Assembly: GCA_965207025.1 (NCBI GenBank)
Contig: OZ242258.1
Location: forward strand, 858,841 to 922,840
Source: Dehalococcoidia bacterium
Lineage (GTDB): Bacteria; Chloroflexota; Dehalococcoidia; Lucifugimonadales; UBA3495
DNA: 64,000 bases
Direction: 5' to 3'
The position numbers were made by a program, and so were the translations under genes. Shown here in pieces: positions 33,278 to 35,051 of the stretch. A model generated the notes under the pieces. It ran no database searches and had not been told where the DNA came from. It saw nothing but the letters and a program-made list of their open reading frames with translations. Position 1 is the first letter of the stretch, and the number at the start of each line of letters is the position of its first letter.

Positions 33278-34297
33278 TTGAGACTGGTAATTCCAAGCGA
33301 CGGCGAACTGGGCGAACCCACTGTGCGGTTCCTGGACTCGTGCGGAGTCAAGGTCAACCGTCCCAACTCTCGCCGCTATACCGGATCAATCCCGTCGATC
33401 CCGGGCATTGACGTGCTATTCCAACGCACCGCCGACATCACCACCAAGGTCGAGGAAGGTAGCGCGGACATGGGCATCACCGGCCTGGATCGCCTGATGG
33501 AATACCGCCACGACGACGATGCGGTGGTCGCCGTTATGGAAGACCTTGAGTTCGGACGCTGTGATTACGTGCTGGCGGTTCCCGAATCATGGCTGGACGT
33601 TACCTCGATAGACGACCTGGCGGATTTGGCGTTGGAATTTCATGCCCACGGTCGCCAGCTGAGGATCGCCACCAAGTATCCCCGCCTGCTGCGCCGCTAC
33701 CTGTTTGAACGCGGCATCAACTACTTTACCCTCGTTGCAGCCAGCGGAACCCTGGAAGCGGCTCCCATCGCGGGATACGCCGATCTGATTGCCGACCTTT
33801 CGGCAACCGGCACCACGCTGCGGGAGAACCGGTTGAAAACTCTCGATGGCGGTACTATCCTCACCTCCCAGGCGTGCTTGATTGCTAACCCGGTTTCGCT
33901 GGCCCAAAATCCCAATGACTTGCGCCTGGCCCAGTCTTTTACCGAAATGTTGGAAGCCCACATGCGCGCGGAGCCGTACTACCGCATCACCGCCAACGTC
34001 CAGGGCCGTTCTGCGGAAGACGTCAGCGGGATGATCCTATCGCGGCCCGAAATCGCCGGCATCCAGGGCCCGACCGTCGCCCGCGTGTTCAGCGTCGAAG
34101 AAGAGGACTGGTATGCGGTATCCTTGCTGATCCGTAAGCGTCGGTTGCTGGATGTTGTTGAACATCTGCGCGAATGCGGCGGAGTGGACATTGCCGCTGC
34201 CCAACTCTCATACCTGTTCAAGGGTAAATCCCAGTCATTCGACGCATTTCTGGCGCATATCGCCGCCCAAAGTGGAGGCCCGGCCGAATATGCCTAA
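33278..34297 (+). CDS. hisG: ATP phosphoribosyltransferase, long form with C-terminal regulatory domain
   Basis: Catalytic blocks DVLFQRTADITTKVEEGSADMGITG and ADLSATGTTLREN. The C-terminus YYRITANV...IQGPTVARV...WYAVSLLI resembles the HisG_C domain. Confidence 0.88.
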   Translation: MRLVIPSDGELGEPTVRFLDSCGVKVNRPNSRRYTGSIPSIPGIDVLFQRTADITTKVEEGSADMGITGLDRLMEYRHDDDAVVAVMEDLEFGRCDYVLAVPESWLDVTSIDDLADLALEFHAHGRQLRIATKYPRLLRRYLFERGINYFTLVAASGTLEAAPIAGYADLIADLSATGTTLRENRLKTLDGGTILTSQACLIANPVSLAQNPNDLRLAQSFTEMLEAHMRAEPYYRITANVQGRSAEDVSGMILSRPEIAGIQGPTVARVFSVEEEDWYAVSLLIRKRRLLDVVEHLRECGGVDIAAAQLSYLFKGKSQSFDAFLAHIAAQSGGPAEYA

Positions 34298-35051
34298 CCT
34301 TCCCATGCACATTTACCTGTGCCAGCAGGTCGCCGAGGAACTCGATTGGGGTTACGCTCACGATCACGCGGGAGCGGCTTATCTGGGTTCCACTACGCCG
34401 GACATCCGAGCGATGACCCGGTGGAACCGGTCGCGAACCCATTTTTCCGATCTTGCGGTGCCCCGTATCGGCGACGGCGTGCAGAGAATGTTCGAGCTTT
34501 ATCCGCACCTTGCCGGTTCCGACAACGCGCTCCGGCCGGAGACCCGGGCCTTCCTCCTGGGCTACATCAGCCACATCGTCGCCGACGAAGCTTGGATTAC
34601 CACCATGTTCCGGCCCTATTTCGATGGCGCCAATCGCGTCACCGACACCGAAGTTGAGTCTCACATCTGGGATCGGGCCCTCCAGTTGGATATGGATCGG
34701 GTGGCGCTCAACGAAAACGGCGGTTTGTCCGTTCACAATGATGCTATTGCCGACCTGGAAACCATGCCGGCCCTGGAGTTCTTGCAGGATGAATTGATTG
34801 ACGAATGGCGCGGCTGGGTTGCCCGGCTGCTGGGATGGGATTTCACCTGGGAACGCCTCAAGCGCGCCCTGAACCGGATGTACCGGGACAACGATGAGGT
34901 GCAGTTGGTGGTGGATGGGTTCCTGGAAAACATGCCGCGCAGCCTGGAGCGCGTGTACGAGCGCCTCCCTCGTGAACTGATCGATAACTACCGTCAGCAG
35001 GTGATAGAAGAAACCAAAATCCAGGCGCGGGAGTATCTCAGTGCAACTTAA
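34290..35051 (+). CDS. zinc-dependent phospholipase C-like family protein embedded in the his operon
   Basis: MPNLPMHIYLCQQVAEEL...AYLGSTTPDIRAM...RTHF...GYISHIVADEAW matches the pattern remembered for bacterial Zn_dep_PLPC-like proteins. It overlaps the hisG stop by 8 nt and the hisD start by 11 nt. Confidence 0.6.
   Translation: MPNLPMHIYLCQQVAEELDWGYAHDHAGAAYLGSTTPDIRAMTRWNRSRTHFSDLAVPRIGDGVQRMFELYPHLAGSDNALRPETRAFLLGYISHIVADEAWITTMFRPYFDGANRVTDTEVESHIWDRALQLDMDRVALNENGGLSVHNDAIADLETMPALEFLQDELIDEWRGWVARLLGWDFTWERLKRALNRMYRDNDEVQLVVDGFLENMPRSLERVYERLPRELIDNYRQQVIEETKIQAREYLSAT

What the first reader, a model, noticed from the sequence alone, without database searches (positions are those of the whole stretch)
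34290..35051. Metallo-phosphoesterase-like gene translationally coupled inside the his operon: candidate for a novel histidinol-phosphate phosphatase
Seen in the sequence: the operon reads hisZ-like, hisG, X, hisD, hisC, hisB. X (253 aa) overlaps the hisG stop by 8 nt, and its own stop is overlapped by the hisD GTG by 11 nt, so it is almost certainly co-translated with the pathway enzymes. HisB here is 205 aa, which is dehydratase only, and no HAD, PHP (HisJ) or IMPase-type (HisN) phosphatase is present in the operon. X carries conserved His/Asp patterns (PMH, HDH, GSTTPD, THF, SHIVADEAW) that I recognise as the bacterial zinc-dependent phospholipase C-like family, a fold that hydrolyses phosphoesters. 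Established knowledge: the histidinol-phosphatase step is the one his step filled by non-orthologous enzymes in different lineages. Inference: X may be a further, undescribed type of histidinol-phosphatase.
Basis: partly seen in the sequence, partly recalled or inferred. Interest (0 to 1): 0.7.

Follow-up and report, generated by a model that had tools for sequence, protein, structure and literature searches.

The report
Candidate new histidinol-phosphate phosphatase family
A 253-residue metal-dependent phosphoesterase-like gene sits between hisG and hisD in essentially every relative found in uncultured Chloroflexota, which makes it a strong but untested candidate for the phosphatase step of histidine synthesis, the step most often unaccounted for in bacterial genomes.

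Summary
X (34290..35051, +, 253 aa) overlaps the hisG stop by 8 nt, and the hisD GTG overlaps its own stop by 11 nt. The operon is hisZ-like, hisG, X, hisD, hisC, hisB, and HisB is dehydratase only.

X passes Pfam's cut-off for PF00882 (zinc-dependent phospholipase C), but only over model positions 1-93 of 167. Through that model, H7, H95 and D99 map onto B. cereus PLC ligands H14, H118 and D122. P2, H7, D38, H51, H95 and D99 are invariant. The third zinc site has no counterpart. A confident AlphaFold model (pLDDT 94.6) finds no PLC or P1 nuclease by Foldseek.

Across about 145 loci at 24-96% identity, all named ones Dehalococcoidia/SAR202/Chloroflexota MAGs, hisG lies directly upstream in 118 of 120 and hisD directly downstream in 114 of 120. 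The hisD frame usually overlaps the end of X. A sister subfamily keeps the metal core but switches D128/R129/Q132 to H/N/R, and it is never his-linked.

No known histidinol-phosphatase type is in the operon or among the long ORFs of the window. No paper I could search describes this.

Best reading: a new, non-orthologous histidinol-phosphate phosphatase (about 0.55). Main rival: PR-ATP pyrophosphatase (HisE). I could not check whole genomes, and there is no activity data.

The parts
31846..33264 (+). hisZ-like gene (472 aa), a paralogue of histidyl-tRNA synthetase and the first gene of the operon
   Evidence: PF13393 E=6.5e-45. It scores below the NCBIfam cut-offs for both hisS (208 vs 287) and hisZ (197 vs 272). 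It is present upstream of hisG in nearly all loci.
33278..34297 (+). hisG, long-form ATP phosphoribosyltransferase with the C-terminal regulatory domain
   Evidence: PF01634 plus PF08029; TIGR00070 at 183.7 bits and TIGR03455 at 53.4 bits, both above cut-off.
34274..34278 (+). GGAGG Shine-Dalgarno-like site, 11 nt upstream of the X start and inside the hisG coding sequence
   Evidence: Read directly from the sequence.
34290..35051 (+). X: a 253-aa, all-alpha, cytoplasmic PF00882-like metallo-phosphoesterase and candidate histidinol-phosphate phosphatase
   Evidence: ORF. PF00882 at 35.9 bits. AlphaFold2 pLDDT 94.6. Family-wide position between hisG and hisD.
34290..34297 (+). 8-nt overlap between the X start and the hisG stop
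   Evidence: This junction varies in relatives: median -8 nt, range -449 to +385 by my ORF-extension estimate.
34293..34310 (+). Codons for Pro2 to His7. The invariant N-terminus MPxxxxH is proposed to supply the N-terminal-amine and His ligands of one metal.
   Evidence: P2 and H7 are invariant in 75 diverse members and conserved in the sister subfamily. H7 aligns to model position 2, as does H14 of B. cereus PLC. That Pro2 acts as a ligand after Met removal is inference.
34401..34442 (+). Codons for Asp38 to His51 (motifs PD38 and TH51F), proposed metal ligands equivalent to PLC D55 and H69
   Evidence: Invariant. They lie inside the PF00882-aligned stretch 6-99. The residue-to-residue equivalence rests on motif likeness (THFSD vs SHFYD) and is inference.
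34572..34586 (+). Codons for His95 to Asp99 (motif GYxSHxxxD), equivalent to PLC H118 and D122
   Evidence: Invariant. X residue 99 and PLC residue 122 both end at PF00882 model position 93.
34671..34697 (+). Codons for Asp128 to Asp136 (the DRALQxxxD helix), the proposed substrate-specificity element of the his-linked subfamily
   Evidence: D128, R129 and Q132 are 100% conserved in the his-linked subfamily and switched to H, N and R in the sister subfamily that is not his-linked. D136 is shared. These residues lie in helix 121-142 of the model.
35041..35051 (+). 11-nt overlap between the hisD GTG start and the X stop (translational coupling)
   Evidence: In about 100 of 127 loci with hisD adjacent, the hisD alignment starts upstream of the X stop. 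Gene calls in distant loci give overlaps of 4-14 nt.
35041..36387 (+). hisD, histidinol dehydrogenase, which consumes the product of the proposed X reaction
   Evidence: PF00815 E=9.9e-153.
36442..37539 (+). hisC, histidinol-phosphate aminotransferase, which makes the proposed X substrate
   Evidence: PF00155 E=1.5e-57. Its position in the operon is conserved.
37542..38159 (+). hisB, imidazoleglycerol-phosphate dehydratase only, with no phosphatase domain
   Evidence: PF00475 covers residues 39-182. The NCBIfam monofunctional HisB models match. The match to bifunctional PRK05446 covers only its dehydratase half, 166-355.

Best explanation
X is the founding example of a his-operon-specific subfamily of PF00882-like metallo-phosphoesterases. 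It most likely supplies the histidinol-phosphate phosphatase step (EC 3.1.3.15) in Dehalococcoidia/SAR202-type Chloroflexota, where HisB is dehydratase only.

Proposed mechanism (inferred, not shown):
- After removal of Met1, the free amine of Pro2 together with His7 and Asp99 holds one metal. Asp38, His51, His95 and Asp99 hold a second. This mirrors the Zn3/Zn1 pair of phospholipase C and P1 nuclease.
- A metal-bridged hydroxide attacks the phosphomonoester of L-histidinol phosphate made by HisC.
- The subfamily-specific residues Arg40, Arg129 and Arg189, plus the shared Arg47, bind the phosphate. Asp128, Gln132 and Asp136 on helix 121-142 bind the amino and imidazole groups, or a third metal.
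- The product, histidinol, passes to HisD, whose gene is translationally coupled to X.

Shown here: the gene layout, the family membership by HMM, the invariance of the ligand set, the operon conservation, and the specificity switch relative to a sister clade.
Inferred: the substrate, the metals and the roles of individual residues.
For: (1) Gene context. In the window and 53 genome loci the order hisZ-hisG-X-hisD-hisC-hisB is kept. Eight distant lineages at 24-45% identity keep X next to hisD and, wherever upstream DNA was available, next to hisG, with overlaps of 4-14 nt onto hisD. Adding 80 metagenome loci, hisG is directly upstream in 118 of 120 loci and hisD directly downstream in 114 of 120.

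(2) Pathway logic. The operon holds steps 1, 6, 7, 9 and 10. The only late step without a gene is step 8. HisB has no phosphatase domain.

(3) No rival phosphatase nearby. No HAD, PHP or IMPase protein is in the operon or among the scanned long ORFs (mostly 180 aa or longer) of the 64-kb window. No HisB-N-like sequence is in any of about 150 loci.

(4) Catalytic core. PF00882 is hit above threshold. Anchoring through the Pfam model gives H7=H14, H95=H118 and D99=D122 of B. cereus PLC. P2, H7, D38, H51, H95 and D99 are invariant.

(5) Specificity switch. The sister subfamily keeps that core but switches D128/R129/Q132/R40/R189 to H/N/R/Q/T, and it lies in a different conserved context with a glycosyltransferase and RNase HII. 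This is the pattern expected of one catalytic scaffold with two substrates.

(6) Split operons. Where the operon is split, X stays with hisD-hisC-hisB without hisZ-hisG in L117, and sits directly before hisC in L111.

(7) Chemistry (established knowledge). P1/S1-type nucleases of this superfamily also have 3'-phosphomonoesterase activity. PHP-type histidinol-phosphatases use a comparable multinuclear metal site.

(8) Literature. Histidinol-phosphatase is the most frequent remaining gap in amino-acid pathway annotation, missing in 42 of 208 prototrophs (GapMind 2026 preprint, 10.1101/2024.10.14.618325). HisN is reported in class Chloroflexia, not in Dehalococcoidia (PMC5516325).
Against: - There is no activity or genetic data.
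- I could not scan whole genomes, so a canonical HolPase elsewhere in these genomes is not excluded.
- Foldseek of a confident model found no PLC or P1 nuclease. A profile search of PDB sequences and hhalign against B. cereus PLC also found nothing. The link to a phosphoesterase fold therefore rests on one partial Pfam match plus motif conservation.
- The third metal site of PLC/P1, which stabilises the leaving group, has no counterpart.
- One lineage (L059, same contig as L126) carries a HAD-IA gene between hisD and hisC. Some genomes have a HAD-IB phosphatase a few kb away.
- In L136, X stays with hisG and there is no hisD nearby.
- The extra conserved arginines would also suit a polyphosphate substrate such as PR-ATP.
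Confidence: 0.55

Rival explanations
1. X is a non-orthologous phosphoribosyl-ATP pyrophosphatase (the HisE step, EC 3.6.1.31). It would cleave the alpha-beta phosphoanhydride of the HisG product with its metal centre.
For: X lies directly after hisG in 118 of 120 loci. In L136 it stays with hisG without hisD. One protein (P0196) reads as HisG_C fused to X. HisE is the second most common gap, missing in 9% of prototrophs. No hisE or hisI lies in the window or in any locus. The his-linked subfamily has gained three conserved arginines, R40, R129 and R189, which fits a highly anionic substrate.
Against: The tightest and most conserved coupling is to hisD, not hisG. The hisG-X spacing varies from overlap to several hundred nt. 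L117 keeps X with hisD-hisC-hisB without hisG, and in L111 X sits next to hisC. hisE is normally fused or adjacent to hisI, and hisI is encoded elsewhere here together with steps 3-5 (general knowledge). No pyrophosphatase is known in the PLC/P1 superfamily. X has no similarity to PF01503 or MazG-like proteins.
Confidence: 0.15
2. X has another his-linked role. It could be a metabolite-repair or side-activity phosphoesterase, a metal-dependent accessory or partner of HisD (a zinc enzyme), or a regulator of the HisZ/HisG complex, rather than one of the ten canonical steps.
For: The operon association is very strong, but no substrate has been shown. The fold has no solved relative. The operon is already unusual in pairing a HisZ-like protein with a long-form HisG. 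The overlap with hisD could reflect a stoichiometric complex.
Against: A complete, invariant set of catalytic-type metal ligands is shared with a sister subfamily in a quite different context. That argues for an enzyme and not a regulator. The pathway has an obvious unfilled enzymatic step in the same operon.
Confidence: 0.2
3. X is a passenger gene with a function unrelated to histidine, for example a phospholipase or nuclease that happens to be trapped in the operon.
For: Public records annotate it only as 'zinc dependent phospholipase C family protein' or hypothetical. The sister subfamily is not his-linked.
Against: The position is kept between 24% and 96% identity across about 145 loci, with translational coupling. 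X is conserved about as well as hisG and hisD among close relatives: 77-89% against 77-95% and 82-92%. It has no signal peptide, whereas classical PLCs and P1 nucleases are secreted (sequence).
Confidence: 0.05

Closest known systems
Bacillus cereus phospholipase C / Clostridium perfringens alpha-toxin N-domain (Pfam PF00882, Zn_dep_PLPC)
   Same: X passes the Pfam gathering threshold. It is all-alpha and of similar size. Through the Pfam model, H7, H95 and D99 align with H14, H118 and D122. It shares the motifs 'xHFxD' and 'LGxxxHxxxD'.
   Different: Only model positions 1-93 of 167 align. There is no counterpart of H128, H142 and E146 (the third zinc). Direct profile and fold searches find no similarity. 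X is cytoplasmic with an N-terminal Met-Pro, not a secreted protein with a processed N-terminal Trp. Its context is an amino-acid operon, not virulence or lipid metabolism.
P1/S1 nucleases (PF02265; same structural superfamily as PLC)
   Same: The spacing from the N-terminal residue to the first His ligand is five residues (Trp1 to His6 in P1, from my own knowledge; Pro2 to His7 in X). These enzymes have phosphomonoesterase (3'-nucleotidase) as well as diesterase activity, so the scaffold can hydrolyse monoesters.
   Different: X has no Pfam match to PF02265. P1/S1 nucleases are secreted, glycosylated, trinuclear-zinc enzymes acting on nucleic acids.
PHP-type histidinol-phosphate phosphatase (HisJ/HisK of Bacillus, Lactococcus, Thermus and yeast His2)
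   Same: This is the proposed functional analogue. It is a stand-alone, His/Asp-ligated multinuclear metal phosphomonoesterase that serves organisms whose HisB is dehydratase only.
   Different: The fold is unrelated (a distorted TIM barrel against an all-alpha protein) and there is no sequence similarity. PHP HolPases have three metals, while X conserves ligands for two and the third is uncertain.
IMPase-type HisN, the HAD-type HisB N-domain, and PSP-like HAD-IB HolPases
   Same: They fill the same pathway slot, and they show that this step is repeatedly filled by non-orthologous enzymes (PMC5516325; PMC5764234).
   Different: They have no homology to X. HisN is reported for class Chloroflexia and not for Dehalococcoidia.
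Sister PF00882-like subfamily in Anaerolineae-type Chloroflexi (e.g. P0444, P0430, P0401, P0464)
   Same: About 25-33% identical and of the same length. It shares the N-terminus MP(T/N)xxxH and the same invariant P2, H7, D38, R47, H51, H95, D99 and D136.
   Different: It has D128 to H, R129 to N, Q132 to R, R40 to Q and R189 to T. It is never in a his operon. Three of the four contexts share X-like, a ~270-aa unknown and GT2, and all four share GT2 and RNase HII.

Membership tests
Pfam PF00882 Zn_dep_PLPC (PLC/P1-nuclease superfamily) | Profile HMM score above the curated gathering threshold | tested here: met
   35.9 bits against 26.8, E=9e-9, but only residues 6-99 against model 1-93 of 167. 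Distant members and the sister clade score 23-36 bits over the same stretch.
Pfam PF00882 Zn_dep_PLPC (PLC/P1-nuclease superfamily) | Ligands of the Zn1/Zn3 pair (N-terminal residue, H14, D55, H69, H118, D122 in B. cereus PLC) | tested here: met
   H7, H95 and D99 map to H14, H118 and D122 through the shared model coordinates. P2, H7, D38, H51, H95 and D99 are invariant in 75 members and in the sister clade. The equivalences D38=D55 and H51=H69 rest on motif likeness only.
Pfam PF00882 Zn_dep_PLPC (PLC/P1-nuclease superfamily) | Third zinc site (H128, H142, E146; motif QPxH after HxxxD) | tested here: not met
   No HMM alignment beyond model position 93-96. There is no His six residues after D99. 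D128, Q132 and D136 sit on the next helix and might substitute, but this is untested.
Pfam PF00882 Zn_dep_PLPC (PLC/P1-nuclease superfamily) | Three-dimensional similarity to solved PLC / alpha-toxin / P1 nuclease structures | tested here: not met
   The AlphaFold2 model has pLDDT 94.6 and pTM 0.92. Foldseek against the PDB gave a best E of 1.2 and TM below 0.22, with no PLC or P1 nuclease among the 50 listed. The profile search of PDB sequences and hhalign against 1AH7 found nothing.
Pfam PF00882 Zn_dep_PLPC (PLC/P1-nuclease superfamily) | Secreted protein whose N-terminal Trp is exposed by signal or propeptide cleavage | tested here: not met
   The protein starts MPNLPMH with no signal-peptide-like stretch, and the N-terminus itself is invariant.
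Histidinol-phosphate phosphatase (functional class, EC 3.1.3.15) | Encoded with, and co-transcribed with, histidine biosynthesis genes in organisms whose HisB lacks a phosphatase domain | tested here: met
   No convincing terminator lies within the operon: terminator-like matches were no more frequent than in shuffled sequence.
Histidinol-phosphate phosphatase (functional class, EC 3.1.3.15) | Homology to a known HolPase family (HAD HisB-N, PHP HisJ/K, IMPase HisN, PSP-like HAD-IB) | tested here: not met
   No Pfam or NCBIfam match to any of these. So it would be a new family and not a member of a known one.
Histidinol-phosphate phosphatase (functional class, EC 3.1.3.15) | No other HolPase in the same genome (anticorrelation across genomes) | not testable with these tools
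   Only the 64-kb window and flanks of up to 10 kb could be read, and none was found there. Whole chromosomes could not be fetched.
Histidinol-phosphate phosphatase (functional class, EC 3.1.3.15) | Hydrolysis of L-histidinol phosphate, or complementation of a HolPase mutant | not testable with these tools
   This needs an experiment.
Phosphoribosyl-ATP pyrophosphatase HisE (PF01503, MazG-like) | Sequence membership of PF01503 or the all-alpha NTP pyrophosphatase superfamily | tested here: not met
   No such match down to E=1.
Phosphoribosyl-ATP pyrophosphatase HisE (PF01503, MazG-like) | Genome lacks any other hisE | not testable with these tools
   No hisI or hisE in the window or loci. The rest of each genome is unseen.

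The most novel reading that the evidence does not exclude
The DRALQ-motif subfamily of PF00882-like proteins is a fifth, structurally unrelated family of histidinol-phosphate phosphatases. It would be a cytoplasmic offshoot of the secreted PLC/P1-nuclease scaffold that uses a Met-excised N-terminal proline as a metal ligand and is made in fixed ratio with HisD. It would close the histidine-pathway gap for the abundant, uncultured SAR202/Dehalococcoidia lineages.
Probability: 0.5. Interest if true: 0.75.

Novelty: new variant of a known kind. Interest (0 to 1): 0.7.

Why it matters
Histidinol-phosphate phosphatase is the single most frequent unexplained gap in bacterial amino-acid biosynthesis. 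It is missing in 20% of known prototrophs in the GapMind 2026 preprint. Such gaps lead to false predictions of auxotrophy and cross-feeding in uncultured microbes.

This family is confined, as far as the named records show, to Dehalococcoidia/SAR202-type Chloroflexota, which are major deep-ocean, sponge and groundwater lineages known almost only from MAGs.

If X is the phosphatase:
- their histidine pathway becomes complete on paper;
- a new enzyme family can be added to annotation pipelines;
- the PLC/P1-nuclease scaffold gains a small-molecule, cytoplasmic, biosynthetic member with a clear pair of specificity-switch residues to study.

The hypothesis can be tested directly with one cloned gene in existing E. 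coli or C. glutamicum mutants.

Tried and rejected
1. Direct searches for solved relatives gave nothing. phmmer of X against PDB sequences, the family profile against PDB sequences, hhalign of the family against B. cereus PLC 1AH7, Foldseek against the PDB and Foldseek against BFVD had no significant hit. I cannot confirm the PLC fold in three dimensions, and model coordinates were not exposed for measuring ligand distances.

2. NCBIfam has no model for X.

3. Extra genes inside some operons were checked as possible alternative phosphatases.
- The HAD-IA in L059 (same contig as L126) occurs on a single contig, matches only generic HAD models, and has an atypical motif I, 'DAMGV'.
- The 261-aa ORF in L064/L065 has no family match.
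- L061 has a KaiC-like ATPase.
- The 2-4 kb insertions in L014, L020, L026 and L036 were only ORF-listed and show no obvious phosphatase; some look like mobile or defence genes. L116 and L134 have a GMC oxidoreductase pair there.
- The roughly 1-kb insertion between X and hisD in L075, L078, L079 and L093 is a RelA_SpoT-type gene.
None of these explains the family-wide pattern.

4. I looked for hisH, hisA, hisF, hisI, hisE and a HisB N-domain in all loci using E. coli queries, and found none. The second half of the pathway is therefore elsewhere, and the HisE question stays open.

5. Rfam and the promoter/terminator scans of the operon showed nothing informative.

6. Literature searches for a PLC-like HolPase returned nothing. 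I searched 'zinc dependent phospholipase C' with histidinol, PF00882, SAR202 with histidinol, and Chloroflexi or Dehalococcoid with HolPase.

7. I considered using contig length as a genome fingerprint to look for HisE or HisN in X-bearing chromosomes. I dropped the idea because no query close enough to these genomes was available.
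Full report
**1.

ORF listing and the raw sequence show a 253-codon ORF, X, running from ATG 34290 to TAA 35049-35051 on the + strand. The upstream ORF (33278..34297) ends with TAA at 34295-34297, so X overlaps it by 8 nt. The downstream ORF starts at GTG 35041, so it overlaps X by 11 nt. 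A GGAGG lies 11 nt before the X ATG, and a GGGAG lies 7 nt before the hisD GTG.

Pfam and NCBIfam identify the six genes.
- 31846..33264: a HisS paralogue that scores below both the hisS and hisZ equivalog cut-offs (HisZ-like).
- 33278..34297: long-form HisG (HisG plus HisG_C).
- X.
- 35041..36387: HisD.
- 36442..37539: HisC.
- 37542..38159: a 205-aa HisB that matches only the dehydratase domain.

No convincing terminator or Rfam element lies within the operon; the terminator-like matches were no more frequent than in shuffled sequence. The other his genes (H, A, F, I, E) are not in the 64-kb window, and no HAD, PHP or IMPase-type protein is among its scanned long ORFs.

**2. What X is at the sequence level.**

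X matches PF00882 (zinc-dependent phospholipase C) at 35.9 bits against a gathering cut-off of 26.8. Only residues 6-99 align, to model positions 1-93 of 167. NCBIfam has no model for it.

To anchor the alignment I scanned the B. cereus PLC sequence, which I had first verified as PDB 1AH7, after truncating it at D122. Its residues 13-122 cover the same model positions 1-93. Hence H7 of X corresponds to H14 of PLC, D99 to D122 and H95 to H118. These are ligands of the Zn3/Zn1 pair. The motifs THFSD (X) against SHFYD (PLC) suggest H51=H69 and D38=D55. That pairing rests on likeness and is not a computed alignment.

In 75 diverse family members the invariant residues are P2, H7, G28, G33, P37, D38, R47, H51, F52, L74, G91, H95, D99, W102, D128, R129, Q132, D136 and W173 (a similar result).

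The invariant Met-Pro start, five residues before the first His, resembles the Trp1/His6 arrangement of P1 nuclease (my own knowledge). It suggests that after Met excision the proline amine serves as a ligand (inference). X has nothing that aligns with the third-zinc ligands H128, H142 and E146.

**3. Structure.**

AlphaFold2 on the 75-sequence alignment gives a confident all-alpha model with pLDDT 94.6, pTM 0.92 and 13 helices.
- Foldseek against the PDB gives no meaningful match. The best E is 1.2, TM is below 0.22, and no PLC or P1 nuclease is among the 50 listed. BFVD gives none either.
- A profile search of PDB sequences and hhalign against 1AH7 are also empty.

The order of secondary-structure elements and ligands over the first ~140 residues resembles PLC, in my reading: a helix with His, a helix ending in Asp, a loop with HF, a long helix with HxxxD, then a helix with acidic residues at i, i+4 and i+8. 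I could not test this in three dimensions because the model coordinates are not exposed.

X is therefore a Pfam-level member of the PLC family with a conserved two-metal core. Its C-terminal half is divergent, and its overall fold has no solved close relative.

**4. Comparative genomics.**

X has hundreds of homologues of about 250 aa. There are 331 clusters at 50% identity with E<=1e-3 and 578 clusters at 90% identity. Sources name them only as hypothetical or as 'zinc dependent phospholipase C family protein' from Dehalococcoidia, Chloroflexi or SAR202 MAGs.

- All 53 genome loci (60-89% identity) keep hisZ-hisG-X-hisD-hisC-hisB. One of them is cut off by the contig end within hisD.
- Eight members from different sequence clusters (24-45% identity to X; clustering) are all directly followed by hisD and, wherever upstream DNA was available, directly preceded by hisG. 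Called overlaps onto hisD are 4-14 nt.
- A metagenome scan added 80 loci at 33-80% identity.
- Over all loci, hisG is directly upstream in 118 of 120 with enough upstream DNA, and hisD is directly downstream in 114 of 120 with enough downstream DNA. The hisD alignment begins before the X stop in about 100 of 127.
- The hisG-X spacing is much more variable.

Exceptions are informative but point both ways.
- L117 keeps X-hisD-hisC-hisB behind unrelated genes.
- In L114, X also follows unrelated genes, and the contig ends right after X.
- L111 has X next to hisC.
- L136 has hisG-X followed by a transporter and no hisD.
- Four loci carry a RelA_SpoT-type gene between X and hisD.

One contig (L059, the same contig as L126) has a HAD-IA gene between hisD and hisC. 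It matches only generic HAD models, and its motif I reads DAMGV.

Among close relatives X is 77-89% identical, comparable with HisG (77-95%) and HisD (82-92%). It is therefore under similar constraint.

**5. A sister clade gives a specificity contrast.**

Weaker hits of the representative search form a second subfamily with the same length and the same MP(T)xxxH start. Four looked-up members all lie in a different conserved neighbourhood. Three of the four share X-like, a ~270-aa unknown and GT2, and all four share a GT2 glycosyltransferase and RNase HII. None has his genes nearby.

I aligned 75 his-linked and 115 sister sequences.
- Conserved in both: M1, P2, H7, G33, P37, D38, R47, H51, F52, G91, Y92, H95, D99, W102, D136, W173 and R196, plus a few more hydrophobic positions (P72, L74, F88, L96, F111, F164).
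- Switched cleanly: D128 to H, R129 to N, Q132 to R, R40 to Q and R189 to T.

A shared catalytic core with a discrete set of switched residues on helix 121-142 is what one expects of two enzymes with different substrates. It also shows that the his association belongs to the DRALQ subfamily, not to PF00882 in general.

**6. Function.**

The operon encodes steps 1, 6, 7, 9 and 10, and the missing late step is step 8. HisC makes histidinol phosphate and HisD consumes histidinol. X, a predicted metallo-phosphoesterase, is translationally coupled to hisD.

The superfamily includes enzymes with phosphomonoesterase activity, such as the 3'-nucleotidase activity of P1 nuclease. The PHP-type HolPases work with a comparable His/Asp multinuclear site (established knowledge).

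I therefore favour histidinol-phosphate phosphatase, at about 0.55.

The main rival is the HisE step, at about 0.15.
- For it: HisE is also often missing in genomes. X follows hisG. One protein reads as HisG_C fused to X. The subfamily-specific arginines would suit PR-ATP.
- Against it: the stronger coupling is to hisD. The L117 and L111 arrangements keep X with late-step genes. hisE usually travels with hisI. No pyrophosphatase is known in this superfamily.

A non-canonical his-linked role (about 0.2) and a passenger gene (about 0.05) remain possible.

**7. Novelty.**

Kulis-Horn et al. 2017 (PMC5516325) list three HolPase families and place HisN in class Chloroflexia only. Price et al. 2018 (PMC5764234) added PSP-like HAD enzymes. 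The GapMind 2026 preprint still finds hisN missing in 42 of 208 prototrophs and does not mention phospholipase-C-like proteins. Searches combining the family name or accession with histidinol returned nothing.

Within the literature I could reach, this his-linked PF00882 subfamily is undescribed. It would be a new enzyme family for a known reaction, that is, a new variant of the known pattern of non-orthologous displacement at this step.

**8. Limits.**

- I could not read whole genomes. Absence of canonical HolPases and presence of hisE in X-bearing genomes are therefore untested.
Breadth comes from the exact-protein look-ups and the metagenome scan.
- Metal identity, substrate and residue roles are all inferred.

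Noticed in passing
window 31846-34297 (and the same genes in nearly all loci): A HisZ-like HisRS paralogue is conserved next to a long-form HisG that carries the C-terminal regulatory domain. The paralogue scores below both the hisS and hisZ NCBIfam cut-offs, and its motif-2 arginine loop looks degenerate by eye. HisZ is classically the partner of short-form HisG, so this pairing is unusual.
   Followed up: partly
window 29054-31279: An AAA_21 ATPase (505-aa ORF) is followed by a DUF4276 protein split into two overlapping ORFs (30528-30941 and 30851-31279), apparently by a frameshift. In L055 the two SDR genes abut hisZ directly, so this defence or toxin-antitoxin-like pair looks like an insertion just upstream of the his operon.
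   Followed up: partly
L075:1260-2249, L078, L079:3711-4712, L093:3602-4604: A RelA_SpoT-domain gene (small alarmone synthetase-like, about 330 aa; split in L093) is inserted exactly between X and hisD in one marine sub-lineage. This places a (p)ppGpp-type enzyme inside a his operon.
   Followed up: partly
L147-L150 (gene at 8001-~8790 in each): The sister subfamily of X in Anaerolineae-like Chloroflexi sits in a conserved cluster with a GT2 glycosyltransferase and RNase HII, preceded in three of four loci by an unannotated ~270-aa protein. Its function is unknown, and it differs from X at D128H, R129N and Q132R.
   Followed up: partly
L058:1584-3044: The hisG product is 486 aa and gives two separate matches to the HisG catalytic domain, which suggests a tandem duplication. 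No HisG_C match was listed.
   Followed up: no
L059:10136-10747 (same contig as L126): A 203-aa HAD-IA hydrolase lies between hisD and hisC on one groundwater contig. Its motif I reads DAMGV and lacks the second Asp typical of HAD phosphatases. hisB in that locus is called at 279 aa.
   Followed up: partly
L064/L065:10167-10952; L061:11270-12007: Other lineage-specific genes are inserted in the operon: a 261-aa protein with no family match between hisD and hisC, and a KaiC-like ATPase between hisC and hisB.
   Followed up: partly
window 38312-38707: A 131-aa ORF just after hisB has no Pfam match and contains an internal duplication of a ~30-residue unit (..SY.IV.S.G.I.W.GDT.LL..).
   Followed up: no
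window 53760-56681: Myo-inositol-1-phosphate synthase, a GT4 glycosyltransferase and a CDP-alcohol phosphatidyltransferase lie in a row. This suggests synthesis of phosphatidylinositol-type lipids in this Chloroflexota genome.
   Followed up: no
window 17740-25558 and 46229-49078: A CobN, ChlD-like (AAA+VWA) and CbtA cobalt-chelatase/transport cluster on the + strand, and two tandem cytochrome P450 genes on the - strand.
   Followed up: no
P0196 (355 aa) and P0260 (272 aa), from the representative search: These are apparent read-through proteins that join HisG_C to X, and X to the HisD N-terminus. They are probably frameshifts or assembly errors at the overlapping junctions, but they could be real fusions.
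   Followed up: partly
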